DNA of 64,000 bases from an uncultured Candidatus Saccharibacteria bacterium (GTDB taxonomy: Bacteria; Patescibacteriota; Dojkabacteria; GCA-002793355). Position numbers and translations under genes: made by a program. Within the stretch, counting starts at the first letter, position 1. The number at the start of each line of letters is the position of its first letter. The notes below the pieces were generated by a model that made no database searches, was not told the DNA's origin, and saw nothing but the letters and a program-made list of their open reading frames with translations. The DNA is taken from positions 504,662 to 568,661 of the forward strand of contig CAZGEO010000001.1 in assembly GCA_964525295.1 (NCBI GenBank), written 5' to 3'. Positions 12,255-43,100 of this stretch are shown here, in pieces.

Positions 12255-12602
12255 ATGAAAACAATGATGCTATCAATTTTTCAAAAAGCCTTTGCTTTTG
12301 GGGTAAATGTTATCGGAAATCCTTCTGTGCCTTCAGGGTATATTAAATCTAATGAAGGGGCCGAAAGAATTAGTTCCGCTCTAAGCGTCATATTTGTATT
12401 AACTGCCATTACGGCCGTATTTACTATTATGTGGGCAGGTTTTGCCTATATAACGAGTACAGGTGATCCAGGTAAGATTAAGCAGGCAATGAGTACCCTG
12501 CAATGGGCTGTTGTAGGTTTGATCATCTCAGGTCTAGGTTATCTCATCGTTTCTATTATTGCCGGAATCATGGGAATCAATAGTCTTGAATTGCCGTTCT
12601 AG
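12255..12602 (+). CDS. T4SS pilin-like small membrane protein
   Basis: STGDPGKIKQAMSTLQWAVVGLIISGLGYLIV core, tandem paralog. Confidence 0.65.
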   Translation: MKTMMLSIFQKAFAFGVNVIGNPSVPSGYIKSNEGAERISSALSVIFVLTAITAVFTIMWAGFAYITSTGDPGKIKQAMSTLQWAVVGLIISGLGYLIVSIIAGIMGINSLELPF

Positions 12603-12676
12603 TTACTAATTACAATCTATCCAATCAATTTCTCTTTGTTTGAGCTTTTTTTTGGGGAAGATTGTGATCAGACACT

Positions 12677-12705
12677 TTGTTCAAAGTAAAAATTTAAGGT
12701 ATAAT
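12677..12705 (+). promoter_or_regulatory. Sigma70-like promoter TTGTTC-17-TATAAT upstream of the DUF4870 gene
   Basis: Exact 17-nt spacer. TATAAT lies at 12700-12705, 28 nt before the ATG at 12734. Confidence 0.5.
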
Positions 12706-12733
12706 GCACCATTAAGTTAAACTGTTCACTCAC

Positions 12734-13105
12734 ATGGCAGAAGTCGTCGAAACAAAGCCAGTTGCAACCGAATCAGCAGCATCAACTGTTGATAGCAACG
12801 CAAAATTAATGGCAGCAATTGCATGGTTCTTTGCACCAATTGCATCTGTCGTATTCATCGTTCTTGATAACTACAAGAAAGATAAATATGTTCAATTCCA
12901 TGCTTGGCAATCATTAGCATTCGGTATTGCAAACATCGTTGTTTCATTCGTTTTAGGTTGGACTTGTATTCTTCCACTTGCAATGTTTGTTGTTGCAATC
13001 GTTGGAATTATCAAGGCATTCCAAGGTGAAATGTGGAAGCTTCCAGTTATTGGTGACTGGGCAGAACAACAGGCAAATAGCACTGTTGCAAGCGCAAGCA
13101 AATAG
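12734..13105 (+). CDS. DUF4870-family small membrane protein
   Basis: Motif YVQFHAWQSLAFGI with two or three TM helices. Confidence 0.65.
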   Translation: MAEVVETKPVATESAASTVDSNAKLMAAIAWFFAPIASVVFIVLDNYKKDKYVQFHAWQSLAFGIANIVVSFVLGWTCILPLAMFVVAIVGIIKAFQGEMWKLPVIGDWAEQQANSTVASASK

Positions 13106-13139
13106 GGTTAGCACTATTGCCACGTGAGTGGTTTTGCGT

Positions 13140-14756
13140 TTATTGTTGGTTGCGCTGCGTAGCAGCGCAACTTTCTATGGAGAGGTGGCCGAGTGGCTGA
13201 AGGCACCTCACTGCTAACGAGGCAAGGATGAAAATCCTTCCCGGGTTCGAATCCCGGCCTCTCCGCCAGTTGTTTGTTATTCGGACTTCCCGAATCTTTA
13301 TTAGTTGAGCAACCACAGGGTTGTATTCAACTCGCACAATTTGTTTATTATCAACGTAAATTCCTTCAAAAAACATTCTCAAATACTTTCTTTTTAGTGT
13401 TGCATCGGCTTTTATATAGCTTGAGAAGATATTTTCAGATAATGACAGTATGCTATCGAGAATCTTTACTTTGTCGGTATGGTCATTCTGAATACTCGCC
13501 AAATCACTCATAGCAACGGATAGCTCATCTTTTAACCTCATATAAATATCCGTAAATTCATCGCTAGATACAATCCTATCCATTCTGTCATCTTCGGCGT
13601 TTTTCATGCGTGTTTTAATCTTCGCAATCCTGTTCTTAATGATTTTTTCTTCTTCTGATTCAGTTTCTCGTACTTCTGCAAGGATTGATTTTGCGGTTTT
13701 AATAACATCTTTCTTAAAGTCTTCCGTAAACTCAATCTTCTTGAATTCTTCGGATACTAACTGCTCTAGTACTTCCATACGGACATAGTTTTTTGAGCAG
13801 TTTTTGCTCTTTTTTCTGCTTTTGCATCCAAAGTAAAAGAATTCCTGTTGTTTTCCGTTTAGGTATTTCTTGATTTTCTGCTCTCCAACAAGTCTTGAAC
13901 CACAGTTACAATAAACATGACCTCTAAGCATGAAATTATGCGTTCTATCACGAGTTCCTTTCACCTTGCGAATATCGAGTAATTGCTGAACAGTATCAAA
14001 TAACTGCTTTGTTATGATTGGTTCATGCTTTCCTTTGTGTAGTTCGCCTTTCCAGTCAAAATCTCCATAATAAATGGGGTTTCTTAACATTCGTGATACT
14101 GCACTTCTTGATATTGGTTTACTCTCTGTTGAAAGCATACCTTTCTTTTGGAGTGTTTCCGTTAAAGAGGTTATAGAATGATCACCACTTGCAAAGAGCT
14201 GAAAGGCGTATAAAACGAGTTTTGCTACATCGGGTACTGGTCTTATATATCTTTTGTGTTTCTCTCCATAATTTTCATATCCGATGGGTGCAAATGTTGG
14301 CCACCAACCATTCTTTATCTTTTGAGAAACACCTTTTTTGACTTCAAAACCGAGATTAGCAGAATAAAACTGTGCTTGAGCCGACATTATTCCCATTAAG
14401 AATTGGTCTGCTGGGTTATCATCGTTGAAATTCTCCGATACTGACATGAGTTTTACTTTTTTGTCATTGAGAATCTTCTTGATAGTCCAAAAATCAGCCA
14501 TATCACGAGATAACCTATCAGACTTATGGATAATAAGTCCATCTACTTCATGTTCTGATATAAAAGAGATCATTTCAAGAAGTGCAGGTCTATCTGCTGT
14601 TCGTGCTGATTTCCCTGCATCTTCAAATTCTTTTACGACTACATATCCGTTAGCTTTCGCAAATTCGTTACATTTTTCACGCTGAAAAGGTAGCGATAAA
14701 TCATGCTTTGCCTGTTCATCTGTGGATACTCTCGTGTATATGACTGCTGTTTTCAT
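13140..14756 (-). CDS. Large serine recombinase (resolvase/invertase N-domain + recombinase domain + zinc-ribbon); the frame continues antisense across the whole tRNA-Ser gene
   Basis: N-terminal YTRVSTDEQ with the catalytic Ser, and DRLSRD. Cys pairs lie in the C-terminal region. The last ~43 codons are the reverse complement of the tRNA. Confidence 0.8.
   Translation of the reverse strand: MKTAVIYTRVSTDEQAKHDLSLPFQREKCNEFAKANGYVVVKEFEDAGKSARTADRPALLEMISFISEHEVDGLIIHKSDRLSRDMADFWTIKKILNDKKVKLMSVSENFNDDNPADQFLMGIMSAQAQFYSANLGFEVKKGVSQKIKNGWWPTFAPIGYENYGEKHKRYIRPVPDVAKLVLYAFQLFASGDHSITSLTETLQKKGMLSTESKPISRSAVSRMLRNPIYYGDFDWKGELHKGKHEPIITKQLFDTVQQLLDIRKVKGTRDRTHNFMLRGHVYCNCGSRLVGEQKIKKYLNGKQQEFFYFGCKSRKKSKNCSKNYVRMEVLEQLVSEEFKKIEFTEDFKKDVIKTAKSILAEVRETESEEEKIIKNRIAKIKTRMKNAEDDRMDRIVSSDEFTDIYMRLKDELSVAMSDLASIQNDHTDKVKILDSILSLSENIFSSYIKADATLKRKYLRMFFEGIYVDNKQIVRVEYNPVVAQLIKIREVRITNNWRRGRDSNPGRIFILASLAVRCLQPLGHLSIESCAATQRNQQ
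13150..13176 (+). terminator. Perfect 9-bp inverted repeat TTGCGCTGC-gta-GCAGCGCAA followed by CTTTCT; possible intrinsic terminator between the DUF4870 gene and tRNA-Ser
   Basis: The palindrome is read directly in the sequence. The U tract is weak, and the hairpin also lies inside the 3' tail of the recombinase reading frame. Confidence 0.35.
13179..13268 (+). tRNA. tRNA-Ser (anticodon GCU) with long variable arm and encoded CCA
   Basis: Acceptor GGAGAGG/CCTCTCC, anticodon loop CUGCUAA (U33, GCU, A37), variable-arm hairpin AAGGATGAAAATCCTT, T-arm CCGGGTTCGAATCCCGG, discriminator G + CCA. Confidence 0.85.
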
Positions 14757-14913
14757 TTTAGGCTTTATTAGGTTTCAATTTAGCTTTTCGCATAGCTTTC
14801 ATTTCCCTTATCATGGCGTAGTAATAATCCTTTTGTGCGTTCACAAAATTTTGGATAAATAAATCGACTGGTTTTAATTTCTTTTTCATATTGTATTAGT
14901 GTTAATAAATAAA

Positions 14914-15023
14914 AAAGGGCGACTCGTTGGACACAACTCTGTATCACAGAATTGTACGAATCGCCCTTTACATCATTTAAACCTAAATGACTAAGGTCTG
15001 TGATACGATTAAGTTGTGTCCAG
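14914..15023. repeat. Two interleaved imperfect inverted repeats upstream of the recombinase gene: AAAGGGCGA/TCGCCCTTT and TTGGACACAAC..GTATCACAGA/TCTGTGATAC..GTTGTGTCCAG
   Basis: Read directly in the sequence. Candidate recombinase-binding or att-like or operator site. The 85-aa track ORF 14780..15037 here is probably spurious. Confidence 0.5.
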
Positions 15024-16001
15024 TTATATCTTACCATAGTTTTGTTTTTCTGTTAATTTTTCTACCTCCTTTTTTATAAAATTAAGTAAATTGAAGTTTT
15101 CGGCGTTCATATTGAGAAATTCTGTACTAAATCCGTTTTGCTCAAAGGTCGCATAATCAATAAAAAGAAATCTATCCTTTTGCAAAAAGTCATCTACAAC
15201 ATAATCAGACATACTGCGAATATCATCTGCCATTGTTACCCCCTTTAAAACAACATTTTTGAAGTTCATACTAGCATGACTCCAACTCCACTGACCTGTA
15301 TATTCAGGCTCAAATACAACAAGGTTTTTAAGCCTTTCTCTTGTGCTTTCGGTGATAAACAGGATATTCGGGTAAGTGTTTACTTTTTGTTGTTTGAGTT
15401 GATCAAAATATTCAAAGTATTTCATGTACTTAACCGCAACATCTTTTGAATACTCTGTTCCTCTGTCGTATTCAATCCAAAATGAAAAGACAATGTTTTC
15501 TATTTGAATTTCAACTTCTGCATCAGGCATTACATATCTTTTGATAATCCTGCCCGATGATGTGTTGCGAAACTGATATTCATACCTTGTAAAATGGTCA
15601 CCTGTAAACTTTCTTAATATTAGGTTGTGTTTTTGGCACTCCCGAAGCAAAAGCAAATACAAATTAGCGACTTTTACTGTATGCTCTAAAGCAAAGAAAT
15701 TCACACCAGTTAGCCTTTCAGGACAATTAATAGAATCCTCACTCACACCTGTACCAGTAGCCAGTTGTTTTGCCCCAAGTCGTGATAAAAATATGATTTT
15801 GGCATTGTTGGTATAGTAGGTCGTTCTAATTAATCCATGCTCCCTTAATCTGTTTACTGTTCTACTAACTGCTTGATAACTTCCGTATAACTTCTTCTCC
15901 AATAAAATCTTAGTCAAAACTTGAAGCGGTAAAAATCTAAAACTATTAACTATCCCTAATATCTGAATATCATTGTACTTTGCAATATAACTTTCTTTCA
16001 T
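15024..16001 (-). CDS. Replication-relaxation family protein (plasmid-type, wHTH N-terminus)
   Basis: N-terminal wHTH (LTKILLEKKLYGSYQAVSRTVNRLREHGLIRT) and a PDAEVEI...FWIEYDRGTE motif typical of the Replication-relaxation family. Confidence 0.55.
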   Translation of the reverse strand: MKESYIAKYNDIQILGIVNSFRFLPLQVLTKILLEKKLYGSYQAVSRTVNRLREHGLIRTTYYTNNAKIIFLSRLGAKQLATGTGVSEDSINCPERLTGVNFFALEHTVKVANLYLLLLRECQKHNLILRKFTGDHFTRYEYQFRNTSSGRIIKRYVMPDAEVEIQIENIVFSFWIEYDRGTEYSKDVAVKYMKYFEYFDQLKQQKVNTYPNILFITESTRERLKNLVVFEPEYTGQWSWSHASMNFKNVVLKGVTMADDIRSMSDYVVDDFLQKDRFLFIDYATFEQNGFSTEFLNMNAENFNLLNFIKKEVEKLTEKQNYGKI

Positions 16002-16033
16002 AATAAAAATAACTAAAAAATTAAATAAAAAAG

Positions 16034-16196
16034 TAAGGTCTGTCGATCACACACTTTTCACAGAACTTAATGTGTAACACACACACATTAATCGTTGTCG
16101 AGGGAGTGATTGGGTGGAAGGCATTAGGAAACGCAGTTTCGCCTTCCACCCAATCAGTCACGAGGTTCTGTAAAAGTGCGACAGACCGTAACTTTC
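16034..16196. repeat. Nested inverted-repeat (cruciform-capable) region: outer arms GGTCTGTCG..CACTTTTCACAGAAC / GTTCTGTAAAAGTGCGACAGACC, palindrome TTAATGTGT-aacac-ACACATTAA, inner perfect 13-bp IR TTGGGTGGAAGGC / GCCTTCCACCCAA
   Basis: Read directly in the sequence. It is located just downstream of the Rep-like gene inside the element. Candidate element origin, oriT or a structured RNA. Confidence 0.55.
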
Positions 16197-16286
16197 GTGT
16201 TTGACAACATGGTGAGAAACTGGATTCATAGAAACGCCCTTTTCGGTAGGATACATTCAACATTTAATCAATCATGGTTTTCATAG

Positions 16287-17075
16287 TTAAAATTTAGATT
16301 TTTCTAAGAATTTAGCTCTCATTGTTTCAAGTTTTGACAGTTGCTCTTTGCGTTTTCGTTTCTCCTGTAAATCTTTGAGAGTTTTAACAAACAACCCTGC
16401 TGGGTTTGAGAGTGGTTTTGTTCCATCAACTTGAGCAGTGCGAATTTGAGTTCTTGTGAAAATTAAAGCATCTGTAACATCATCGGAATTAACAATTCCT
16501 TTGTTCTTTTGGCTGATTAGCTTTTGGTAGTATTTAATGCTTTTAAGGTAGTTTAGCTCTTTAGCGATTTCTACTGCTTCTTCTGAAAAAGATTTAAAAT
16601 CATCGTTTAACGTTAACTTATTATTTTTAATCTTTTCTTCTTCAACTTTATATTCTTTGTAGGTCAAATTTGACTCACCTTGATGTGTCAATTCTGAAAC
16701 ATCTGGTTGTTGCAATTCTGACACATCCGCAAGACTATCGAGTTTTTCAGCATATATTTCTGATATTGGCTCAAGAATATACAAGTTTGTTTTATTAAGT
16801 CCTCTTGTTTTCCAAGACATAAGCCCACGACTTCTAAGCTCATCTAATCCTCTAAATATTGAACTTCTACTTTTACCGATTGTTTCTGCTAGTTTATTTT
16901 GTCCTGGAAAACAATAATTTTTGTTCATAGCGTATTTGAGAAGTGCCAAATATACTCTAACTGCAAGATCTGAAAGCAATCTATCTTCTGTTATTAAATG
17001 ACTAATTTGAGCAAATCCGTATTGCTTTTCAAAATCTCGAAATATTACTTTGTCTTGCTTATCGGTCATTTTCAT
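16287..17075 (-). CDS. HTH-domain replication-initiator-like protein (DnaD/replisome-organizer-like N-terminus)
   Basis: The N-terminal VYLALLKYAMNKN...NKLAETIGKSRSSIFRGLDELRSRGLM resembles Rep/DnaD-type wHTH. The C-terminus is charged. Confidence 0.45.
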   Translation of the reverse strand: MKMTDKQDKVIFRDFEKQYGFAQISHLITEDRLLSDLAVRVYLALLKYAMNKNYCFPGQNKLAETIGKSRSSIFRGLDELRSRGLMSWKTRGLNKTNLYILEPISEIYAEKLDSLADVSELQQPDVSELTHQGESNLTYKEYKVEEEKIKNNKLTLNDDFKSFSEEAVEIAKELNYLKSIKYYQKLISQKNKGIVNSDDVTDALIFTRTQIRTAQVDGTKPLSNPAGLFVKTLKDLQEKRKRKEQLSKLETMRAKFLEKSKF

Positions 17076-17254
17076 GTACTTTTCGTTTTTGTAAATAACT
17101 TGCTTTTTCGAAGTAGCTCAATTGCTGATTTAGACTTCTCCTGCTTTCCAATTAATCGGCTATAACCTAATTGTTCAAAACAAAGCAAAACCCATTCACG
17201 AATGAATAGTTCTCTTGCGGTCATAGGTTTTGTTTTTTGTTTCTCTTTTGCCAT
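17072..17254 (-). CDS. Small basic hypothetical protein (60 aa), translationally coupled (ATGA overlap) to the downstream Rep-like gene
   Basis: 4-nt start/stop overlap with 16287..17075. Confidence 0.4.
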   Translation of the reverse strand: MAKEKQKTKPMTARELFIREWVLLCFEQLGYSRLIGKQEKSKSAIELLRKSKLFTKTKST

Positions 17255-17257
17255 TTT

Positions 17258-17335
17258 TAAAACAAAAAAAGAGGTCTAAATCAAAAAGGCTGTAAGCGTT
17301 ACGCTTAACAAATGACCTTTAAGACTTAGACCTCT
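17258..17335 (-). terminator. Intrinsic terminator: 10-bp perfect stem AGAGGTCTAA/TTAGACCTCT (with inner GCGTAACGC hairpin) followed on the minus strand by U7-rich tract
   Basis: Plus-strand aacaaaaaaagaggtctaa...ttagacctct, downstream of gene 17384..17599. Confidence 0.5.
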
Positions 17336-17383
17336 CTACAACTCAACTAAGGGTAGCTGAGGGCTAATATCTAAATTATTTAC

Positions 17384-17599
17384 TTATTGTTTCGTTTTTC
17401 TTTTACCTGTTTTTATATGTAATATCGTGCTATCAATTCTTTTGTTTGATATTTTAATTTCGTAAGTTCCAAATTCAAATTTTACGAATTCTTCAATGAT
17501 TTTCTTGAGATCTTCCAAGTGGATATTATAGATTTCAGGGCTTTGTAATAGCTCAAGAAATTGTTTTTTGAGTTCAAGTGATATTTTAGATTGTGTCAT
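17384..17599 (-). CDS. Hypothetical small protein (71 aa)
   Basis: 14-nt overlap with the upstream ORF and the same orientation as the element genes. Confidence 0.4.
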   Translation of the reverse strand: MTQSKISLELKKQFLELLQSPEIYNIHLEDLKKIIEEFVKFEFGTYEIKISNKRIDSTILHIKTGKRKTKQ

Positions 17600-18365
17600 A
17601 TGAGATATTTTTGTCTAATAAATCTAAATAATCCGTACTATCGCTATCTGTTTTCATAGCGTAATTCTTGTAAATCATTAACGGCTCTAAATACTCAATA
17701 CTTGATACTCCATCAACTATTGAAACTCGTTTAAAACCCTCTTGTTTGAGGTACTCGTTATCAGTACGAAGTACTGAAAAGATATTTGCTTCTTGAGTTG
17801 TTAAGTTCTTTTTAGGGATTAAAACAACATAGAATGGGTCAAGTTTTGAGTGGTAATAGTCAAATATTGTAAGTTTCCAACATGGAATTGAGACTTTTTG
17901 AGTGTATACAGTCATTTCTTCAATAACTGGGAGGGCTACAAACAGCTTTTTATTAAGTCTGAGGTTGTATAGGACTCTTTCTTCCATTGGAGTATTTTCA
18001 ACTGGTTTTGGTGGCAATTGGCTTGAAAAATAGTTATATACATGGATTCGTATTTCATCATGTTTATATCCTCGTTTAAATAATTGGTGAATGTACCATA
18101 TCATCATTGGTACTTTAATTTTGTGATAGCCTACTGTACCACCAAGAGCAGAGGTTAAGCCCATTTTCTTTGCAGAGGGAAGAAAGCTATGTCGGGAGTA
18201 GTAAATGAGTTTCTTTCTATCACATTCAATGTTCCAAGAGCTTTTTATGATTAAATCGACAACTGTATCTGAGGATAGATCGTATCTATTTGTTGTATCG
18301 GAGACTAAACCCCATTCATACATTTGTTTTACGAAGTTACTAATTGTTTTATCTAAGATATTCAT
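17586..18365 (-). CDS. Hypothetical protein (259 aa), element-encoded
   Basis: Long ORF with no recognisable motif. Confidence 0.5.
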   Translation of the reverse strand: MNILDKTISNFVKQMYEWGLVSDTTNRYDLSSDTVVDLIIKSSWNIECDRKKLIYYSRHSFLPSAKKMGLTSALGGTVGYHKIKVPMMIWYIHQLFKRGYKHDEIRIHVYNYFSSQLPPKPVENTPMEERVLYNLRLNKKLFVALPVIEEMTVYTQKVSIPCWKLTIFDYYHSKLDPFYVVLIPKKNLTTQEANIFSVLRTDNEYLKQEGFKRVSIVDGVSSIEYLEPLMIYKNYAMKTDSDSTDYLDLLDKNISYDTI

Positions 18366-18580
18366 AGTATCGAGTTAAATATATCAATGTTTGTCACTAT
18401 ACTAATATATACCACTCAAAATAGTTTGTCAATAAATTTGCTATGTTTTACACTCAAGCTCAAAACTAAGAAACTAAGTATAAATTTAAAGCTTCGCTTT
18501 CTTATTATAATGTCGTTTCAGGTAAAATTGGGTAATGTATAAGCCGATTTAATACGGGAATAATTAATTATTAAAACAAA

Positions 18581-19657
18581 ATGAATGAAGCTGTAAATAA
18601 GTATCTTGAGGAAGTACAAAGCAAGTTTAAAACTGGACACGCTAGAGAACACGCCTATCACCCAGCGTTACAAAAACTTATTGAAGATATTAATAGCTCA
18701 ATCAATGCGGTAAATGACCCAAAACAACAAAAGGTCGGTGCTCCTGATTTTGTTTTACTAAAAAGTAAAACACCTATCGGCTATGTAGAAGCAAAAGACA
18801 TAGATATTGCACTTGATAAAGAATTTAAAACAAAGAATCAATTTAACAGATATAAAGCCTCACTCAATAACTTGTGTTTTACGAATTATCTCGACTTTCA
18901 CTTTTACCTAAATGGTGAAGAAGTAGCAAAAGTTGCTATCGGAAAACTGGAAAATAACAAAATCGAAGTTTTACCAGATAATATTCCACTGCTTGAAAGC
19001 TTACTCAAGAATTTTACAACACAGAAATCTATTTCTATCAGAAGCCCGAAAGAACTTGCTTCTCTTATGGCTGAAAAAGCAAAGATGCTTAAGAATGTTG
19101 TTTATTTGTCATTAAAAGAAGAATCAGAAGTTAAAGGACAAGTTGAACAACAATACCAAGTGTTTAAGCAAATGCTTATTCATGACTTATCACTTGAACA
19201 ATACGCTGATTTATACGCTCAGACTGTTGCTTACGGAATGTTTGCGACTAGATACTACGACCCTTCTTTGGAGAACTTTAATAGAGGTGAAGCAAACAAG
19301 CTTTTGCCAAAGTCAAACCTTTTTTTGCAGAACTTCTTGAAAACTATGGAAAAGATACAAAACGAAGTGATGTCATTGTTCCTTTTACGAAACTTTCTTG
19401 GCAGAATATGACCCTAAAATGCGTAAATCAAGAGGTGTTTACTATACTCCTGAACCAGTAGTTGATTTTATCGTAAGGGCTGTTGATGACATTTTGAAAA
19501 CCTAGTTTGGAATTACTGACGAATTAGCAGATATAAGCAAGATTGAAGTTGAAAAAGAGTTACAGGGTAATAAGAAGAAGCAGAAAGTAACGGAACACAG
19601 TATTCAAGTTCTTGATCCTGCGACTGGGACAGGTATATTCCGAAATCTTGCCACCCT
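18581..19657 (+). pseudogene. N-terminal remnant (~330 aa equivalent) of a Type IIG restriction-modification / BREX PglX-like N6-adenine DNA methyltransferase; frameshift near 19395-19411, in-frame TAG at 19507-19509, truncated right after motif I
   Basis: ORF 18581..19411, then in the +1 frame YDPKMRKSRGVYYTPEPVVDFIVRAV, then TAG, then ...HSIQVLDPATGTGIF (motif I). This runs in frame into the RibB-like/E1-alpha gene, and no catalytic NPPY/DPPY region follows. Confidence 0.6.
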
Positions 19658-19682
19658 ATCTGTGTTGAGTTATACTTATGTT

Positions 19683-21269
19683 ATGTCAGAACAGATAAAA
19701 CGTATTGTTAAATCAGGCAATCCCTTTCTTATTTATCATAATTCTGAAAATGAGACGGCGTTAGTGATTCCTGCAGAATTCATGACTGAAGCAAAATATA
19801 GATTATTTCGAGAATATGCAACCTCTGATGTCGCAATGATGTTTCCTGTAGACATTGCAGAAAGTCTTGGAATCGAGTACATCTCAGACGCACTATTTCT
19901 TAGTGCAGAATACGATTCAATTGTAGATAGTGCAGTAAGAAAATCTCACGCTGGACCAACCCTCGATTTAAAAAGTGTTGAAACAGGAAGTGCTGATGCG
20001 GACAAGGTCAAGACAATAACAAGATTTGCAGAAGTTATATCTTCTCAGAACTTCACAGATTTTTTCAATGAATTCTCAATACCAGGGCATGTTAGAACTT
20101 ATCTTGCCGACCAAGATTTATTAGATGGGCGTAGTGGTCACACTGAGTTAGGTGTATACTTGTCACTTTACACACAGCTTTCAGGTGTCGTATGTATGGT
20201 GACTATTAGAGATAAGGTAACTGGAAAACCATTCAACCTTATTGAGTCGGAGCGTTTTGCAGAAAAAAATAATTACACAATCTTCTATGAGAATGATATT
20301 TTAGACCTATATAGACGGGAGTTTTTACCTTACTGTAAAGCGTCGTTTGAGCAAAAGCAAAACAAGATTATTGAAGATTATAGAAAACTACTAGATATCA
20401 GAAAGTTTGAACAAACCTTAGAAAAGTTGTTTAAAAGTCAAAAAATTCGAGGTTCCTATCATTTAGCCATTGGACAAGAGGCAACAGGAGTGGCTTTAGG
20501 TAAAGTCATTAGCTTGAAAGAAGGAGATAGCGCATTTGTAACACATAGGGGACATCATATTGCTCTCGGTTTAGGGTTAAATAGTCGAGATTTTTTCTTT
20601 GAATGTATTGGAAGTGAACAAGGTCTAAACAACGGGAGATCTGGTCCTATGCACTTTTTTTACAAGCCTAATGGATTAATAAGCGCGAATGGTATTGTAG
20701 CTGCAAATGCACCTATTGCTGCAGGTCTTGCACTGTCAAACAAGCTTAAAAATAATAATAACGTAGTTGTTAATGTTGTAGGAGAAGGCTCCTTAGATGA
20801 AGGAGTCGTGCATGAAACATTGACAGATATGAAAATATGGGGAATTCCATTGATAATACTATGTGAAAATAATTTTTATTCTCAGTCTACGGTAATTGAA
20901 AAACATTTGCCATATGAGAGAGTCACAACAGCGATGCGACAGTTTTACGGCATCAAAGTAGAAAGAATCGAAAATGGTACCGATTTAATTCATTTACAAA
21001 AAAGGCTTAATCATATTGTAGGATGGGTAAGAAAAAATAAAATGCCGGTTTTTGTTGAAATTCAAACATATCGCCAATGTGGACATTCGATGAGTGATAC
21101 TGAGCAAAGTTATATGGATCCGAGTTTAGATTCTGCTTGGCTTAGAAAAGACCCGGTAAGCTTATTGAAACAGTATATTTTAAATCATAATCTTTCAAAT
21201 AACGCTGCTTTAGAAAAGATAGAATCAGAAGTTATAGAATTTTATATGAATCTAGAAACACAAGTATGA
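19683..21269 (+). CDS. Fusion protein: degenerate RibB-like (3,4-dihydroxy-2-butanone-4-phosphate synthase-like) N-domain + TPP-dependent 2-oxoacid dehydrogenase E1 alpha subunit
   Basis: The N-terminal ~200 aa align to RibB (PGHVRTYLADQDLLDGRSGHTE) but the acidic DDEDRENEGD motif is replaced by YHNSENETAL. The C-terminal E1-alpha has YHLAIGQEA, GSEQGLNNGRSGPMH and a TPP motif GEGSLDEG...ENNFY. The likely leaderless start is ATG 19683 (TATACT 6 nt upstream); the track start is 19662. Confidence 0.7.
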   Translation: MSEQIKRIVKSGNPFLIYHNSENETALVIPAEFMTEAKYRLFREYATSDVAMMFPVDIAESLGIEYISDALFLSAEYDSIVDSAVRKSHAGPTLDLKSVETGSADADKVKTITRFAEVISSQNFTDFFNEFSIPGHVRTYLADQDLLDGRSGHTELGVYLSLYTQLSGVVCMVTIRDKVTGKPFNLIESERFAEKNNYTIFYENDILDLYRREFLPYCKASFEQKQNKIIEDYRKLLDIRKFEQTLEKLFKSQKIRGSYHLAIGQEATGVALGKVISLKEGDSAFVTHRGHHIALGLGLNSRDFFFECIGSEQGLNNGRSGPMHFFYKPNGLISANGIVAANAPIAAGLALSNKLKNNNNVVVNVVGEGSLDEGVVHETLTDMKIWGIPLIILCENNFYSQSTVIEKHLPYERVTTAMRQFYGIKVERIENGTDLIHLQKRLNHIVGWVRKNKMPVFVEIQTYRQCGHSMSDTEQSYMDPSLDSAWLRKDPVSLLKQYILNHNLSNNAALEKIESEVIEFYMNLETQV

Positions 21270-22195
21270 AATATTTAGATGCTATCACGAGCTGTTTAAA
21301 GTTTGAACTATCAAAAGAGAATTTATATATTCTTGGACAGGATTTACTCAATTGGAAGGGGCGGGGTCGCTTCTTACATTCATTAATAACTGATTATAGT
21401 GACAAGATAATTGATACTCCAATTTCTGAATCCGCAACTTCAGGAATCGCAACCGGTTTAGCACTGGGAGGATTCAGAGTTATGGTGGAATATGCATTTT
21501 TAGATTTTATATTACATAGTACGGATCAAATAGTTAACAATTCGACTAAGCTTCAATTCTTTGCGGGTTCAAAACACGCCATAAATCTACCAATCGTCTA
21601 TTACTCAACGATTAATTCTGCTATGGGATATGGAGCAACTCATTCACAACCATTGGAGTATCTTTTCTGTAATATTCCTAATTTATTAACAGTTTATCCT
21701 TCCAATAGTACGGATGCTCAGTCTCTATTAAAGGAGGCTCTGAATGCCTCTTCGCCTACCCTTTTTATAAATCATAAACTACTCCACGATACTGAGGACG
21801 ATTTACCCGTAATAGATGCCGGTAAGGCACGAGTTTTTTCTCAAACTAATGATAAGTCGGAAAAGATTGTAATTGTAACTTATGGAAGATCTACTCAATT
21901 GGTTCGAGAAATTTTGACTCAACTTCCAGAACCAGTATATCATGTGGATTTAAGATATCTATCGAAATTTGATTATCAATCAATCCTTCATCCTGCAAGA
22001 AAAATAGTATTTGTAGAGGAAGGTTCTGGTGTGATTATGAAACAGCTTATTGCTGATTTAGTAACCTATTACAACTTAACCTCGAAAGATATCAGATTGA
22101 TAAGCTCAAAAGCTATGCAAATTGGTGCCGGAAGAGCACATGAAGAAATGGTCTTTGTTTCAAAGTCTGATATTTTAGATGCAATACAGTCCTAA
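21266..22195 (+). CDS. TPP-dependent dehydrogenase E1 beta subunit / transketolase-like pyrimidine-binding + C-terminal domains (divergent)
   Basis: 4-nt overlap with E1-alpha and an E1-beta-like layout (TPISESATSGIATGLALGGFRVMVEY). No E2/E3 is nearby. Confidence 0.65.
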   Translation: MKYLDAITSCLKFELSKENLYILGQDLLNWKGRGRFLHSLITDYSDKIIDTPISESATSGIATGLALGGFRVMVEYAFLDFILHSTDQIVNNSTKLQFFAGSKHAINLPIVYYSTINSAMGYGATHSQPLEYLFCNIPNLLTVYPSNSTDAQSLLKEALNASSPTLFINHKLLHDTEDDLPVIDAGKARVFSQTNDKSEKIVIVTYGRSTQLVREILTQLPEPVYHVDLRYLSKFDYQSILHPARKIVFVEEGSGVIMKQLIADLVTYYNLTSKDIRLISSKAMQIGAGRAHEEMVFVSKSDILDAIQS

Positions 22196-39261: not shown

Positions 39262-40101
39262 GTGAGAAGACAAGAAGTGCCTACTCCTGAACGGAAATTG
39301 TGTACAGAAAATTGGTGGGTTCGTAGTGTAGATAAATTGTGGCGTTTTCTGGGCTTCTATCGCTGTGCTGGATGCGATAAGTTTTCGTACACTCTTTGTA
39401 ACACATGTTGTGACAGATTGACCTTTGCTGTGCCTACTTGTTGTCGTTGCGGAAAATTTTCAAGGAATGGTACGATTCACCAAATCTGTGTACCTAATTC
39501 GCAATTCTATCAAAAAACAATATCATTTTTCTCATACACAAAAGTTGTAAAAAGTCTTTTTGCTGCCTATAAGTTTCGGCGACAATTTCAATATCAGCAG
39601 GTATTAGCCGAGTTAATCAAACAATACTTTTTGCTTGACCCTTTTCATTTATTGTCGTGTAACTTTAATTCTGGCGACAAAATTGCACTTATACCTGTGC
39701 CAATGCACAAAAGAAAGCAGAGTGACCGTGGATTTTCACCAGCATATGAACTCACTCTCCTACTCTACCGTGAATTCTTTCAGAATTTTAGCAACGAAAT
39801 TGAAATTTTTGGGCATACTATAACCAAAGTAACTGACAGTTCTGCTCAGTCTTCGCAGAAGCACCGTAATAGGATGCTTTCACTTCAGCGGTCTATACAA
39901 ATTTTGCCAGAAAATGTGTCGGAAGCTTCGCGACTTCTAAAATTCGCACCAACAAAACTTGTTATTGTCGATGACATTTTAACTACTGGCGCGACCGCAA
40001 CGGTTGTTATTGAATCTTTAGCAAAAAATTTACCAGAACTATGCAAAAACACAGAACGAATAGTAATAACGTTTGCTAGAAGCGATAAAAAGCTTTACTA
40101 G
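39262..40101 (+). CDS. ComF-family protein (N-terminal zinc-finger + phosphoribosyltransferase domain)
   Basis: CAGCDKFSY..CNTCC..CCRCGKF and PRPP-binding VIVDDILTTGATAT. Confidence 0.75.
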   Translation: MRRQEVPTPERKLCTENWWVRSVDKLWRFLGFYRCAGCDKFSYTLCNTCCDRLTFAVPTCCRCGKFSRNGTIHQICVPNSQFYQKTISFFSYTKVVKSLFAAYKFRRQFQYQQVLAELIKQYFLLDPFHLLSCNFNSGDKIALIPVPMHKRKQSDRGFSPAYELTLLLYREFFQNFSNEIEIFGHTITKVTDSSAQSSQKHRNRMLSLQRSIQILPENVSEASRLLKFAPTKLVIVDDILTTGATATVVIESLAKNLPELCKNTERIVITFARSDKKLY

Positions 40102-43100
40102 ACAACAATTTTCAGTTGTAGCGGTGTTTTTTCTGCGCCTACTTCAACAGTCGTAAAACCTGCGCCTTCAGGAGAAGTTGCTAGGATACTAACTTCACTT
40201 AAGAATGTCGTTGTTGCCAACTTTTCCTGATACTTGTTAATCATTTCATTGAGTTTTTTCTCTTCGCTGTAAACTTCAAGTTTTGCTCTTTGTCCAATTG
40301 CAAGGTTAGCATTCTTTCTAGCTGCCTGAACAGCACGAGAAATCTCGCGCAGTAGCCCCATCTCTGCAAGTTCTGGCGTAATCTCAGTTTCGAGCCCAAT
40401 AGTAACATCCTTTTCTGATTTGGTAACAATAGTAGTTGATTCTGGCATTACTTCAACCATTTCTACTGATTGCACATTGAGTTCTTCAGCGATTAAATCG
40501 AGATATTCCTGCTCAAGTTTCTTGTCAGCCTGATACATTACTTTTTGGAGAGGTTGCTTCAATGCTAATGCTTTTTCAACACGAATGTTCTGCCCGAGTG
40601 AGGCAACTTCACGAGTAAATTCCATTGTGGTTAACGCCTTTTCTTCTGCGGTTGTCAAAGCATTCACTTCTGGATACAACTCAAGATGCACAGATTCAAG
40701 CGTTAAGACAGTTGGTGCACCTTTTCTCAATTCTTGATAAATGTAATCGGCTATAAATGGCACTATGGGAGCAAAGATTTTTGCCACTGAAACAAGAACC
40801 GAAAAGAGCGTTTGTAACGCAGCTTTATCACCTGCAACGAATCTTTCTCGTGAACGACGAATGTACCACGTAGAAATGTCATCTATAAGAGGTTTTATCT
40901 CAGAAACAGCCTTTGGTACATGATAGGAACTTAGATGTTTATCAATATCAATGGCGGTCTTTTTAATTCGTGCAAGTACCCATTCATCGAGAACAGTTGG
41001 GGTAACTTTCGTTTCTGTAGCGTCAAAATTGTGTTGATTAGCGTATAGAGCGAAATATTTGTACACATTCATAAGTGGGAGTAAAACGTCTTTTATCGGC
41101 TGCGCAATTGCTTCTTCTGAAACGTTCAGATCTTCGCCAACCGGAAGAACGCTACCTGCGACATAAACTCTAAATGCATCTCCCCCATATTTTTCAATTA
41201 CTCCCTTTGGATCAGGATAATTCTTGAGACTCTTGCTCATCTTTCTGCCGTCAGTACCTTTGATAGTTCCTGTTACGATGACATTCTTAAACGCATTCGA
41301 TTTGAAAAGAATTGTTGAAACAACGTGCATGACATTGAACCACGCTCTTGTTTGTCCAACATATTCGATAACGAAATCTCCTGGGAAATTGTTTTCAAAT
41401 TTCTCTTTATTTTCGAAAGGATAGTGATATTGAGCAAAAGGCATTGATGCCGATTCAAACCAACAGTCTAAAACTTCTGGGACTCGTGTCATCGTACCTT
41501 TCTGGCATTCTTCACATTTCCACGTATGCGTATCAATGTATGGACGATGCAGGTTGTCTATTTTCTTTCCTGATTTTGCTTCAATTTCTGCAATTGAGCC
41601 CATGACTTCACGATGGTGACAGGTTGGTTCGGAACATTCCCAAATAGGCATAGGTGTCGCCCAGTAGCGGGTTCGTGAAAGTCCCCAATCAGGGAAGGTT
41701 TTGATCGCTTCGCTGAATCTACCGTATTTTAGATGTTCTGGAACCCAGTTGATGTTTTCGTTGTTTGCAAAAAGTTGCTCCTTTATCTGTTGAATATCGA
41801 CATACCAAGCGCCTTGAGCCTTGTAAACAAGTGGCGTTTTACAGCGATAACAGATTGGATAACTGTGAGTGATTCTCTCCTCTTTGTATAAAATACCTCG
41901 TTCCTTTAGATTCTCGGTTATTGCTGGATCAGCCTTTTTGAAATAAATGCCCGCATAATCGGCTACTTCTGAAATAAACTTTCCTTCATCATCAATGGTT
42001 TCGTGCATCGAAAGGCCAATTTCTTTTCCTAGTGCGGTATCATCTTCACCGAATCCTGGTGCCATGTGAATGATTCCCGTACCATCTTCAATACTGACGA
42101 AATCTGCGTGATAGATTTTGAAATCCTTGTCACCTGCTGGGAAGTAGTTGAACAGCGGTTTGTAGGTATTGCCAACTAATTCTTTACCTTTATAGGTATC
42201 AACTACCGTAAAGGGAGTTTCCTTTAACACTTTTTCTACTAAATTTGCAGCGAGAATGACATATTCCTCACCAATTTTGGCGGTAACGTAGTCTTGTTCT
42301 TTATCTACAACAAGTGCTGTATTGGCCGGCAGCGTCCATGGAGTCGTTGTCCAGGCCATTACAGAAACCTTAGGTTTGCTAATGTTAGGCTCTACTGTTT
42401 GCTCATTGATAATTGAAGATTGATAATTAACAATTGAGGGTTTGTTCTCTAGGATGTCTTTCAAGCAGTTCCTTGTTGGAATATGCATGTCGTTCCATGG
42501 AATATCGTTTTTGTCGAACCATTCAATGTTTTTATCAAGTCCCGCTTCGTCGGTAACTTTAATGTCACCTGTAACTTTCGCCTTAAAATGGTGAGTCTTG
42601 AACAATCTACCTTCGAAAATATCGATTGCGTAACCATAATATTCAAGAGCAGCAATATCGCAACCTATCTCCTCTTTAATCTCTCGGGCAACCGTGTTTT
42701 TTAAGTCGCCATTATCTTGCTCTTCATATTTTCCCCCGACGATTCCGTATACTCTATCTCGACCAGGTTCGTTTCTGCGAATCATCATTACTTGGCCCTT
42801 TTCATTTTCAATAACAACACCTGCGCCAACTCCGGTTTTGTAGTAATTCAATTCGAATTTAACAAAGACGGCTGGATCTTCCAGATCTGCATACGAGTTA
42901 TCCATTGCAATCTCGAAGTTAGAAAGTGGAGTTCCACATCGAGTGCAGTACAAAGAAACTCGTTTTCCTTGATAGACAAGCCCTTTTTCGAAGAATTGTT
43001 TGAAAACCCACATAACGGTTTCCATGTAATTCAAATCCATTGTTCGGTAGGGCTTTTTCATGTCAACCCAACGTGCAATTCTGTCGATATACCATTCCCA

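What the first reader, a model, noticed from the sequence alone, without database searches (positions are those of the whole stretch)
13140..19657. Plasmid/phage-like integrated element next to tRNA-Ser(GCU), with the serine recombinase read antisense through the tRNA
A contiguous all-minus-strand block contains a large serine recombinase, a Replication-relaxation-family protein, a Rep-like HTH protein, small coupled ORFs and an internal intrinsic terminator. It lies directly beside tRNA-Ser and between host operons (pilins/DUF4870 on one side, primase and Fe-S genes on the other). The recombinase frame has no stop until 40 nt beyond the 5' end of the tRNA, so its last ~43 codons are the tRNA antisense. 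That suggests the attachment site lies inside the tRNA gene and the element supplies the reconstituting sequence. Mobile elements of CPR-like bacteria are poorly described, and a serine-recombinase element that carries a replication-relaxation/Rep pair would be unusual.
Basis: partly seen in the sequence, partly recalled or inferred. Interest (0 to 1): 0.7.

Follow-up and report, generated by a model that had tools for sequence, protein, structure and literature searches.

The report
Serine-integrase mobile element at tRNA-Ser
A 5.2-kb plasmid-like mobile element sits at the last bases of a serine tRNA gene in a Dojkabacteria-like (CPR) genome; its serine integrase gene reads on through the tRNA only because the integrase cuts inside its own 3' end, a habit shared by a large, scarcely described group of tRNA-targeting serine integrases.

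Summary
ORF 13140-14756 (-) is an intact large serine recombinase. Its conserved part ends at W497, whose TGG codon is the antisense of the tRNA-Ser(GCU) CCA end. The next 41 codons are host DNA: 29 tRNA antisense and 12 upstream. An 88%-identical copy in another metagenome (L001), at a non-tRNA site, matches the window only from 13263 to about 18448. That defines a 5.19-kb unit: integrase, MOB_C-type relaxase (Replic_Relax), a covarying hairpin with an invariant flank (candidate oriT), a Rep-like HTH protein, three small ORFs, a 259-aa orphan and one strong promoter. Relatives sit at tRNA-Ser GCU, UGA, CGA and GGA. Integrases at least 90% identical carry at least seven different tails, so the element has moved recently. 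Dyad symmetry and shared end sequences place the exchange at G73-C74. The element therefore supplies only the terminal CA, and unoccupied tRNA genes lack CCA. The read-through is a by-product and its length varies among relatives. About 53-72% of related recombinases in public data end in tRNA-antisense peptides. No empty site or circular junction was found. The adjacent 18581-19650 is a decayed MmeI-like restriction gene. Verdict: a new variant of a known kind, of moderate interest.

The parts
13179..13268 (+). Host tRNA-Ser(GCU), the integration target. Bases 13263-13268 (CCGCCA) are shared with an independent element copy. The proposed exchange dinucleotide is G73-C74 (13265-13266).
   Evidence: ARAGORN; Rfam; blastn boundary at 13263; dyad centre
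13243..13295 (.). attL-like junction: GGTTCGAATCCCGGCCTCTCCG|CCAGTTGTTTGTTATTCGGAC. The T-loop GTTCGAAT and the element motif ATTCGGAC lie at mirror positions (14-21 nt) around G73|C74. 13279-13295 also forms a terminator-like hairpin followed by CTTTATT, just downstream of the tRNA.
   Evidence: Sequence; motif TTATTCGRAC 11 nt after G73 in the junctions of window, L015, L016, L018, L019, L021 and L022; symmetry maximal at shift 0 in 6 of 6 tRNA-linked junctions; terminator-like hairpin
13140..14756 (-). Large serine recombinase (integrase), 538 aa as integrated. Residues 1-497 are element-encoded and residues 498-538 are read from host DNA. The predicted excised form ends ...VRITNNWLECKT* (502 aa).
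   Evidence: Pfam; phrog_95 integrase 4.7e-100; PDB TP901-1 and A118 integrases; alignment A1; dN/dS 0.035 against the L001 copy; predicted C-terminus
14757..15023 (-). Region upstream of the integrase gene, with doubtful ORFs of 85 aa (14780-15037) and 43 aa. Its DNA is conserved even in elements that carry a different replication module. It is likely the integrase promoter or a regulatory region.
   Evidence: blastn matches to L016, L015, L001-el2, L022 and L026; the ORFs are not conserved
15024..16001 (-). Replic_Relax (PF13814) protein, 325 aa: MOB_C-type relaxase or nicking replication protein with an N-terminal wHTH.
   Evidence: Pfam 5.8e-10, 40 bits against a cutoff of 25.3; phrog_9381 'replication initiation by nicking'; family assignment in PMC5357655 and PMC3424549
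16097..16159 (-). Conserved 16-bp hairpin (TGATTGGGTGGAAGGC...GCCTTCCACCCAATCA) plus the invariant 3' flank CTCCCTCGAC. It is a candidate oriT or nick site for the relaxase encoded just downstream. The overlapping 80-aa ORF 16021-16263 is probably not coding.
   Evidence: Inverted repeat I14; alignment of 8 elements; individual folds; 95.7% of cells paired, 6 of 16 pairs with compensatory changes, 0 of 500 shuffles reach the score
16287..17075 (-). Rep-like HTH_36 protein, 262 aa (replication initiator or DnaD-like loader).
   Evidence: Pfam HTH_36 5.4e-12; 13 PHROG replication-initiator or helicase-loader families
17072..17599 (-). Two small ORFs (60 aa at 17072-17254; 71 aa at 17384-17599) under purifying selection, of unknown function (candidates for a directionality factor or regulator). 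A small terminator-like site lies between them at 17293-17307.
   Evidence: ORFs; dN/dS 0.05 and 0.11 against L001; terminator scan
17586..18365 (-). 259-aa orphan protein, the first gene of the operon and present in every element of the family. Function unknown.
   Evidence: Only 10 homologues at E<1e-5 in 5.8 billion proteins; no Pfam, PHROG or NCBIfam hit; AlphaFold2 model unusable, pLDDT 38.8
18404..18432 (-). Operon promoter TTGACA-17-TATATT, the best sigma-70 match in the region (11 of 12). The -35 box is conserved in all the elements.
   Evidence: Promoter scan; alignments
18433..18448 (.). Right end of the element (...TTTTACACTCAAGC|TCAAAAC), an attR-like junction. Homology to other copies stops here, and at least five unrelated right flanks occur in other genomes.
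   Evidence: Right flanks: MmeI pseudogene (window), HTH_3/NgoPII restriction-modification genes (L001), ABC transporter (L016), ProRS 405 nt away (L025), PPDK genes 214 nt away (L015)
18581..19650 (+). Adjacent and not part of the 5.2-kb unit: MmeI-like type IIG restriction-modification pseudogene with a frame change near 19400, an in-frame TAG, and a 3' truncation at the host promoter 19648-19676. G+C is 34%, like the element. It is probably the remnant of an older insertion.
   Evidence: 88.8% identity to the 5' end of an intact 1059-aa gene in L001; translations; weak N6_Mtase hit; G+C; promoter

Best explanation
Window 13263-18448 is an integrated 5.19-kb integrative, mobilizable, plasmid-like element of a Dojkabacteria-like (CPR) bacterium.

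How it integrates. The large serine recombinase recombines an attP that overlaps the last codons of its own gene with an attB formed by the 3' end of a tRNA gene (T arm, acceptor 3' strand, G73). Strand exchange is at or next to the G73-C74 dinucleotide. The whole tRNA stays host-encoded. The element adds only the terminal CA, so an occupied tRNA gene acquires an encoded CCA that free tRNA genes in these genomes lack. Integration also removes the integrase's own stop codon, which lies in the P arm; the predicted excised form ends ...NNWLECKT*. The frame then runs on through whatever host DNA follows, here 41 codons of tRNA antisense and upstream DNA. The tail is a by-product and is not selected.

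Rest of the element. It is a replication and mobilization module: one promoter drives a 259-aa orphan, two small ORFs and a Rep-like HTH initiator. A conserved hairpin with an invariant flank (candidate oriT or nick site) follows, then a MOB_C-type relaxase.

Shown: gene content, both boundaries, the tRNA association across the family, recent mobility of near-identical integrases, hairpin covariation, and purifying selection.

Inferred: the exact exchange dinucleotide, replication of the excised form, mobilization through a type IV secretion system encoded elsewhere (by the host or by another element), and current excision competence.
For: Boundaries:
- An 88%-identical copy (L001-L008) at a non-tRNA site matches the window only from 13263 to about 18448.
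- The right boundary recurs with unrelated, partly housekeeping flanks, including ProRS in L025 and PPDK in L015.

Family:
- The same 6-gene module sits at tRNA-Ser GCU, UGA, CGA and GGA.
- Integrases at least 90% identical end in at least 7 different tails after ITNNW-R. These encode at least 5 different acceptor stems and 2 non-tRNA sequences.

Exchange point:
- Dyad symmetry of 6 of 6 tRNA-linked junctions peaks exactly between G73 and the next base.
- GC is the only dinucleotide shared by the common left end (CCGCCA) and right end (CAAGC) that also lies at or left of the CCA.
- Free tRNA-Ser(GGA) and tRNA-Cys genes lack CCA.

Function:
- Integrase domains are intact. dN/dS is 0.035 at dS 0.6.
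- PF13814 is the MOB_C relaxase family.
- The hairpin covaries.
- G+C is 33.7% in the element against 39.1% in the rest of the window.
- No phage structural genes are present.

Tail is a by-product:
- 78 of 108 close homologues and 70 of 133 representatives at 50% identity end in T-loop-antisense peptides, in three different reading frames. This argues against selection on the tail peptide.
Against: - No empty tRNA-Ser(GCU) site was found. The predicted circular junction TTTTACACTCAAGCCAGTTG... had no exact match in either collection.
- A GC central dinucleotide is palindromic. From general knowledge of large serine integrases, that should abolish orientation control, yet all copies have the same orientation.
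- AG (13268-13269) also fits four close copies.
- The right junctions of L025 and L016 lack GC.
- The P arm shows no convincing symmetry with P'.
- No directionality factor or coupling protein was identified.
- The 259-aa protein is unexplained.
- The adjacent MmeI-like pseudogene recurs beside a remnant of the element in L001, so a larger composite island cannot be excluded.
Confidence: 0.7

Rival explanations
1. The mobile unit is larger, about 13263-19650. Genes to the right of the 259-aa gene promoter (here the MmeI-like gene; elsewhere restriction-modification or ABC transporter genes) are cargo, and the true attR lies beyond them. The window copy has lost its distal end and attR by deletion and is locked in place.
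For: - The MmeI-like sequence has the same low G+C (34%) and the same 88-89% identity to L001 as the element.
- In L001 the intact MmeI-like gene lies beyond a mini-remnant of the element.
- In L016 and L001, a 62-nt sequence ending CTTCCG behaves like a P arm or alternative site. It gives matching CCG on both sides of L016 and L001-el1.
Against: - The right boundary at about 18448 is sharp and is followed in other genomes by host housekeeping genes within 214-405 nt (ProRS, PPDK).
- A 5218-nt contig (L022) holds the whole unit from the tRNA to about 85 nt past the boundary.
- The window contains no copy of the 62-nt sequence or of the L001 junction flank.
Confidence: 0.12
2. The element is a fixed, no longer mobile remnant in this genome, and the integrase is inactive or domesticated.
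For: - No empty site or circular form was found.
- The neighbouring DNA is decaying.
- Solitary integrases without the module exist at tRNA-Ser in L019 and L020.
Against: - All ORFs of the unit are intact. The L001 copy, by contrast, has a split Rep gene.
- Purifying selection on the integrase is strong: dN/dS 0.035.
- Both ends are intact relative to other copies.
- Near-identical integrases occupy many sites.
Confidence: 0.15
3. The tRNA-antisense C-terminal extension is functional. It could sense the integration state by changing integrase stability or activity, or by coupling integrase expression to convergent tRNA transcription. This would be analogous to integration-dependent immunity in mycobacteriophages.
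For: - Integration necessarily swaps the C-terminus.
- The integrase and the highly expressed tRNA are convergent and overlapping.
- The arrangement is conserved across a very large clade.
Against: - Tail length and sequence are unconstrained: from about 3-10 residues (for example P0003 and P0009) to about 80, in three reading frames, through different tRNAs.
- Some relatives stop before the tRNA (P0016).
- What is conserved is the position of attP, not the peptide.
Confidence: 0.1
4. The block is a prophage or phage satellite, or an assembly chimera of a plasmid with the chromosome.
For: - The integrase matches the phage integrase family phrog_95.
- A related hairpin-bearing contig is filed in IMG/VR.
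- Logan contigs break inside the element.
Against: - There are no capsid, terminase, tail or lysis genes. Only integrase and replication hits were found.
- The size is 5.2 kb.
- Both junctions are present in separately assembled Logan contigs (L009 left, L011 right) and in a 659-kb NCBI contig.
Confidence: 0.03

Closest known systems
Integrative and mobilizable elements (IMEs) of Firmicutes, including the class with a Rel_PF13814/MobC relaxase and those with serine integrases (Coluzzi et al. 2017, PMC5357655)
   Same: - Small integrated element with an outward-facing integrase at one end.
- A relaxase related to replication/nicking proteins (PF13814 = MOB_C).
- No type IV secretion genes of its own.
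- Tandem accretion with decayed elements.
   Different: - Streptococcal serine-integrase IMEs insert inside protein genes (rumA, traG, snf2, maff2) and disrupt them. This element uses the 3' end of tRNA genes without disrupting them.
- The host is a CPR bacterium.
- It carries an additional Rep-like initiator and a family-specific 259-aa orphan.
[quoted passage not shown]
   Same: Serine integrase, tRNA gene target, and a plasmid-like replication gene.
   Different: - Those cases are predictions for one tRNA in one genus or are unverified calls; the authors wrote 'experimental proof will be required'.
- They carry FtsK-like transfer genes.
- Here near-identical integrases occupy several different tRNA species, and the junction can be placed at G73-C74.
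Classical tRNA-integrating islands and integrative plasmids with tyrosine integrases (P4-like islands, pSAM2, SLP1; own knowledge and PMC2440964)
   Same: Integrase gene adjacent to the tRNA 3' end; the tRNA stays functional; the element is plasmid-like.
   Different: - Tyrosine systems carry a 15-60 nt copy of the tRNA 3' part in attP and leave it as a direct repeat at the far end.
- No such repeat exists here. At most 2-6 nt are shared, as expected for a serine recombinase.
Phage large serine integrases (A118/LI, TP901-1, Bxb1, phiC31)
   Same: Resolvase catalytic domain, recombinase domain and zinc ribbon. Short att sites with a central dinucleotide are expected.
   Different: - Only 23-31% identical to any phage or plasmid integrase in the collections searched.
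- attP overlaps the integrase stop region.
- The target is a tRNA end.
- The inferred centre GC is palindromic, unlike characterized sites (own knowledge).
Elements whose integration alters one of their own genes: mycobacteriophage integration-dependent immunity (attP inside the repressor gene) and SSV1 (attP inside the integrase gene). Cited from own knowledge, not checked here.
   Same: attP lies within a coding region of the element, so the integrated and excised forms encode different protein C-termini.
   Different: In those systems the change is functional (loss of a degradation tag; a split integrase). Here only a short, unconserved tail is exchanged, and no function is indicated.

Membership tests
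Large serine recombinase (serine integrase) | N-terminal resolvase catalytic domain with the serine nucleophile motif | tested here: met
   PF00239 4.8e-36; motif IYTRVSTDEQ, with R9, V10 and S11 invariant in alignment A1; TP901-1 integrase catalytic domain 8.4e-16
Large serine recombinase (serine integrase) | C-terminal recombinase domain plus zinc-ribbon domain | tested here: met
   PF07508 4.2e-18 and PF13408 1.9e-9; invariant Cys283, 285 and 311, with Cys320 nearly invariant; A118 integrase C-terminal domain 3.2e-7
Large serine recombinase (serine integrase) | Short att sites with a 2-bp crossover and no long direct repeats flanking the element | tested here: inconclusive
   There is no repeat of at least 12 nt of the tRNA end at the far end. 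The shared ends allow GC or AG as the core. The symmetry centre is at G73|C74. Cleavage was not demonstrated.
Large serine recombinase (serine integrase) | Catalyses attP x attB integration, with excision needing a directionality factor | not testable with these tools
   No empty site or circular junction was retrieved and no directionality factor is recognisable. There is indirect evidence of mobility: at least 7 different tails among integrases at least 90% identical.
Classical tRNA-gene genomic island (tyrosine-integrase type) | Tyrosine (phage-integrase family) recombinase | tested here: not met
   The only recombinase is of the serine type.
Classical tRNA-gene genomic island (tyrosine-integrase type) | Direct repeat of the tRNA 3' segment at the distal end | tested here: not met
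   The repeat finder over 12500-22000 finds none.
Integrative and mobilizable element (IME) | Own integrase plus own relaxase/oriT, with no mating-pore (VirB4/T4SS) genes | tested here: met
   Integrase and PF13814 relaxase-family protein. No other ORF of the unit has any family hit. Candidate oriT hairpin.
Integrative and mobilizable element (IME) | Excision and mobilization by a helper conjugation system | not testable with these tools
   T4SS_pilin genes flank the site in the host. A preprint reports chromosomal type IV secretion systems in CPR, with MOB_C the commonest relaxase class there. Transfer itself is untested.
MOB_C relaxase (Replic_Relax, PF13814) | Match to PF13814 above the gathering score | tested here: met
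   40.0 bits against a cutoff of 25.3, covering profile positions 5-186 of 191
MOB_C relaxase (Replic_Relax, PF13814) | PD-(D/E)XK catalytic residues and nicking at a cognate oriT | not tested
   The fold assignment is taken from PMC3424549. Residues were not mapped. The adjacent conserved hairpin is only a candidate site.
Prophage or phage satellite | Virion, packaging or lysis genes, or hijacking functions | tested here: not met
   PHROG hits are limited to integrase and replication proteins. The unit is 5.2 kb.

The most novel reading that the evidence does not exclude
This integrase belongs to a very large, essentially undescribed clade of serine integrases that read generic tRNA features: the T loop at a fixed distance plus C72-G73. 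One enzyme could then use many different tRNA genes as landing sites, exchanging strands exactly at the discriminator/CCA boundary and writing an encoded CCA onto genes that otherwise lack it. Placing attP inside the integrase 3' end makes the integrated and excised enzymes different proteins and puts the integrase under convergent tRNA transcription. If that difference is functional, it would act as a built-in sensor of integration state. It would also make these enzymes candidates for integration into native tRNA genes of many organisms.
Probability: 0.25. Interest if true: 0.75.

Novelty: new variant of a known kind. Interest (0 to 1): 0.55.

Why it matters
- It gives a concrete, bounded example of a mobile element in a CPR (Dojkabacteria-like) genome. 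Such elements are barely described. A preprint on CPR type IV secretion reports MOB_C as the commonest relaxase class in CPR genomes (58 of 109 relaxase homologues) without describing the elements that carry them; elements like this one may be a source of such genes, but that was not tested here.
- tRNA targeting by serine integrases was rated rare and unproven in a survey of complete genomes (14 of 297). Here more than half of this recombinase's relatives in public metagenome-derived protein sets end in tRNA-antisense peptides.
- The junction can be placed to within a few bases. That yields directly testable attP and attB sequences for a family whose natural targets exist in every cell.
- There is a practical annotation point: many database 'integrases' of this clade carry chimeric C-termini translated from host tRNA antisense.

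Tried and rejected
Searches that found nothing useful:
- Empty site: pattern of the tRNA 3' end, N{0,30}, then the right flank, in metagenome contigs: 0 hits.
- Predicted circular junction CAAGCCAGTTRTTYGTTATTCGGAC in viral and metagenome contigs: 0 hits.
- Genome-collection scan with the right-flank E1-dehydrogenase protein returned only unrelated Saprospiraceae and Akkermansiaceae loci.
- Exact-protein look-ups of flanking host genes gave only contigs of the same strain, with the same junctions or ending inside the element.
- Scan of viral contigs with the integrase alignment: no relatives.
- The hairpin motif found one IMG/VR contig (L026). It belongs to a sister element type and is not circular.
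- L022 (5218 nt) was tested for terminal overlap: none. It is an integrated copy that ends in a tRNA T loop.
- Rfam search of the odd tandem units in L001: no family.
- AlphaFold2 model of the 259-aa protein: pLDDT 38.8, unusable, so no fold search was run.

Ideas considered and rejected:
- ABC transporter, restriction-modification or MmeI genes as cargo with a distal attR (Model 2). Housekeeping genes lie within 214-405 nt of the right end in L025 and L015, so this is kept only as a minor rival.
- CG as the core. It fits L016 only if the P arms vary, and it does not fit the window or L001.
- The tRNA as cargo of the element. Rejected because homology to other copies stops 6 nt inside the tRNA, and near-identical integrases carry different tRNA tails.
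- A dyad-symmetry scan of the attR regions was uninformative because the sequence is A+T-rich.

Full report
**What is in the sequence**

ARAGORN and Rfam find a single tRNA in the 64-kb window: tRNA-Ser(GCU) at 13179-13268 on the plus strand. On the minus strand, ORF 13140-14756 encodes 538 aa with the three domains of a large serine recombinase: PF00239, PF07508 and PF13408. It also matches phrog_95 'integrase' at 4.7e-100 and the TP901-1 and A118 integrase structures. The TGG codon for W497 is the reverse complement of the tRNA's CCA end. The next 29 codons are antisense to the tRNA body, 12 more read the DNA upstream of the tRNA, and the stop lies in the tRNA promoter region.

Behind the recombinase, all on the minus strand, lie:
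- a Replic_Relax (PF13814) protein,
- a long hairpin,
- an HTH_36 Rep-like protein,
- ORFs of 60 and 71 aa,
- a 259-aa protein with no family.

One promoter, TTGACA-17-TATATT at 18432-18404, is the best sigma-70 match in the region.

It continues in another frame (YYTPEPVV, VLDPATGTG motifs), contains an in-frame stop, and is cut off at about 19650, where the promoter of the host DHBP-synthase/E1-dehydrogenase gene begins.

**Boundaries**

The closest recombinase in public data, P0001 (96% identical), lies on eight metagenome contigs (L001-L008) together with the same gene set. blastn aligns window 13263-18345 to L001 at 88% identity, and a further piece extends the match to about 18448.

In L001 the recombinase is not next to a tRNA. 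Its 3' end runs into the end of a convergent ABC-transporter gene, and P0001 diverges from the window protein immediately after ITNNWR. Two copies with different flanks on both sides therefore define a unit of 5.19 kb. Its left end falls within the last six bases of the tRNA (CCGCCA). Its right end is ...CACTCAAGC, about 16 nt upstream of the -35 box of the promoter.

The same right boundary recurs in other genomes with unrelated flanks:
- restriction-modification genes (L001),
- an ABC transporter promoter (L016),
- prolyl-tRNA synthetase 405 nt away (L025),
- PPDK-like genes 214 nt away (L015),
- a roughly 200-nt 'mini' remnant in L001.

A 5218-nt contig (L022) contains exactly the unit, 28 nt of a tRNA, and about 85 nt of right flank. 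I first considered that the variable genes to the right were cargo and that attR lay further out. The housekeeping flanks argue against this, and I keep it only as a minor rival.

The element has 33.7% G+C against 39.1% for the rest of the window. The window contains no second copy or fragment. Both junctions are also present in separately assembled contigs of the same strain and in a 659-kb NCBI contig. A chimeric assembly is therefore unlikely.

**The family and its targets**

The same six-gene module occurs next to several tRNA-Ser genes:
- tRNA-Ser(UGA) in L015. This is a 117-nt tRNA with a very long variable arm, missed by ARAGORN but scored at 53.4 bits by Rfam. It also lies beside a MamF_MmsF gene, as in the window.
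- tRNA-Ser(CGA) in L016.
- tRNA-Ser(GGA) in L018.

A solitary integrase stops 12 nt short of tRNA-Ser(GGA) in L019 and L020.

In the junctions of the window, L015, L016, L018, L019, L021 and L022, the motif TTATTCGRAC lies exactly 11 nt after the discriminator G73. This motif also encodes the conserved V-R-I of the integrase. The 11 intervening bases differ between subfamilies: CCAGTTGTTTG, CCATCGGTCAG, AATCTCACCGC and others.

Clusters at 90% identity show recent movement. Integrases at least 90% identical to the window protein end, after ITNNW-R, in at least seven different tails. These include tRNA-antisense peptides that imply at least five different acceptor stems, plus two non-tRNA sequences. 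The P0007 cluster behaves likewise, and one of its members reads through two successive tRNAs.

Between the window and L001 copies, dN/dS is 0.035 for the integrase at dS 0.6, and 0.05-0.17 for three other genes. These are maintained genes, not relics.

**Where the exchange happens and what the element supplies**

Three observations converge.
1. The window, L001-el1 and the mini remnant share CCGCCA at the left end and CAAGC at the right end, then diverge. A serine recombinase leaves the same central dinucleotide at both junctions, which allows GC, CA or AG. L022 has GCC at both ends.
2. Genes not occupied by an element lack an encoded CCA: tRNA-Ser(GGA) in L015 ends CTCCG|TATGA and tRNA-Cys in L019 ends CACCT|TAAATG. 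The L018 and L019 subfamily junctions read CTCCG|AAT. The CCA seen in the W-subfamily is therefore most simply element DNA.
3. Scanning every possible centre, the dyad symmetry of all six tRNA-linked junctions is maximal (10-12 of 24) exactly between G73 and the next base. The T loop GTTCGAAT mirrors ATTCGRAC at positions 14-21.

I conclude that the central dinucleotide is G73-N74: GC here and GA in the L018/L019 subfamily. The tRNA is entirely host-encoded, and the element adds only the terminal CA.

On that model, the excised attP is ...TTTTACACTCAA-GC-CAGTTGTTTG..., and the integrase of the excised form ends ...VRITNNWLECKT* at 502 aa.

Caveats:
- GC is palindromic, which from general knowledge of serine integrases should remove orientation control.
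- AG is not excluded.
- L025 and L016 do not show GC at the right end.
- Exact-match searches found neither the predicted attP nor the empty attB.

**The read-through**

Because attP overlaps the end of the integrase gene, integration replaces the natural stop with host sequence. Tails in relatives range from a handful of residues to about 80, and one relative stops before the tRNA.

In the wider family the T-loop antisense appears in all three frames..DSNP....GFEP....IRT... A tail motif is present in 78 of 108 full-length homologues, against about 1 expected. It is present in 70 of 133 full-length representatives drawn from the best 146 at 50% identity. In that library 2273 representatives match at E<1e-30.

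What is conserved is the position of the site, not a peptide. I therefore read the antisense tail as a by-product. A regulatory role, through C-terminus switching or convergent transcription with the tRNA, remains possible but has no support here.

**The rest of the element**

PF13814 is the MOB_C relaxase family, with a PD-(D/E)XK fold. It has been found in integrative mobilizable elements of streptococci.

Just upstream of this gene lies a 16-bp hairpin followed by the invariant CTCCCTCGAC. It is present in all eight elements compared, including a sister type that carries a Phage_rep_O module. 95.7% of cells are paired, six of sixteen pairs show compensatory double changes, and none of 500 shuffles reaches the observed covariation. 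It has no T run. I interpret it as the nick site or origin rather than a terminator, and the 80-aa ORF drawn across it as spurious.

The HTH_36 protein matches many phage and plasmid replication-initiator families. There are no virion genes.

The element is thus an integrative, probably mobilizable, small replicon. The host encodes VirB2-like T4SS pilins right beside the site. A preprint reports chromosomal type IV secretion systems in CPR, with MOB_C as the commonest relaxase class found there (58 of 109), and does not describe the elements that carry them.

Homologues named by their sources are from Candidatus Dojkabacteria. The 259-aa protein has only ten homologues in 5.8 billion proteins, and its structure could not be predicted.

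**Comparison with what is known**

The protein is a member of the large serine recombinases. All sequence-defined features are met, and catalysis could not be tested here.

The element works like an IME or integrative plasmid. It is not a classical tRNA island, because it has no tyrosine integrase and no repeat of the tRNA 3' segment.

Use of tRNA genes by serine integrases is documented only sparsely:
- a predicted cluster of AICEs in a mycobacterial tRNA-Leu, and 'a few examples' (PMC3429521);
- 27 of 937 tycheposons and related elements that carry a large serine recombinase.

The nearest integrases in the phage and plasmid collections are only 23-31% identical.

**Verdict**

The finding is real, and its main interpretation is right in outline.

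The striking feature, an integrase read through a tRNA, is explained as a consequence of attP lying in the integrase 3' end with exchange at the discriminator/CCA boundary.

Three things go beyond the ordinary:
- the CPR host;
- the compact integrase-relaxase-Rep architecture with a covarying origin-like hairpin;
- evidence that a very large, little-described integrase clade targets tRNA ends, with near-identical enzymes found at several different tRNAs.

I rate it a new variant of a known kind, with interest 0.55.

Noticed in passing
window 18581-19650 (+): MmeI-like type IIG restriction-modification pseudogene with a frame change near 19400, an in-frame TAG near 19503, and a 3' truncation exactly at the host promoter 19648-19676. 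An intact 1059-aa homologue lies in L001 beside a remnant of the same element.
   Followed up: partly
window 40098-43505 (-): Class I aminoacyl-tRNA synthetase (Ile/Leu/Val/Met type, 1135 aa) with a NUDIX domain inserted at residues 224-336 (Pfam 5.3e-13).
   Followed up: no
window 61084-62883 (+): Class II synthetase (Asp/Asn/Lys type) fused at its C-terminus to a YbaK-like tRNA_edit domain (4.3e-27).
   Followed up: no
window 19662-21269 (+): One ORF fuses a DHBP-synthase (RibB-like) domain to an E1 dehydrogenase (TPP) domain. A transketolase-pyrimidine-domain protein follows.
   Followed up: no
window 13279-13295 (+): A terminator-like hairpin, ATTCGGACTTCCCGAAT followed by CTTTATT, lies 11 nt after the tRNA end, inside the integrase coding region. 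The element may supply the tRNA's transcription stop and, with the encoded CCA, may change 3' maturation of the tRNA.
   Followed up: no
L015 10480-10596 (-): A 117-nt tRNA-Ser(UGA) with a variable arm of about 44 nt. ARAGORN misses it; Rfam scores it at 53.4 bits.
   Followed up: yes
L016 3294-3354; L001 2634-2695, 17897-17957, 20423-20465, 21148-21208: A 62-nt sequence ending ...GAACAGAACTTCCG is 93-98% conserved between two genomes whose flanking genes are about 76% identical. In L001 it is joined at CCG|CCA to the 3' end of a second, split serine recombinase, whereas in L016 the same site reads CCG|TATAT. It behaves like a non-tRNA attachment site or a P arm. Its nature is unexplained.
   Followed up: partly
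L001 2080-2560 (minus strand): Two tandem units of about 130 nt each end in a tRNA-Ser-like 3' segment (CCCGCCCTCTCCG). The second unit carries a mini-element of about 200 nt: 188 nt of the integrase 3' end joined to the element's right end. There is no Rfam match.
   Followed up: partly
L001 13381-20265: A second, related element has a Phage_rep_O module, a split recombinase, the same hairpin/CACTCCCTCGAC motif and an IS1595 transposase. A truncated third copy lies upstream of a second ABC transporter gene. The region is a graveyard of these elements.
   Followed up: partly
proteins P0136/P0141 and P0151 (clusters of P0007 and of the window integrase): Near-identical integrases with non-tRNA tails (WRCFLIDVRTFFDENPEN*, WRSIRVWNLSV...). 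One is on a 5245-nt ENA contig, about the size of the element, and could be the circular form. The DNA could not be fetched.
   Followed up: no
L009 (ends at window 15323) and L011 (starts at window 18386): Logan contigs of the same strain break inside the element. In L022-L024, contigs from three samples start at the same base. This suggests graph branching from related element variants or from multiple insertion sites in the populations.
   Followed up: no
L021 1840-1900: Here the integrase 3' end abuts only a 3' tRNA-like fragment (TTCGAGCCTTGTCCCATACGCCCCGCCA), with no 5' half of a tRNA. It is either a decayed target or a pseudo-site.
   Followed up: no
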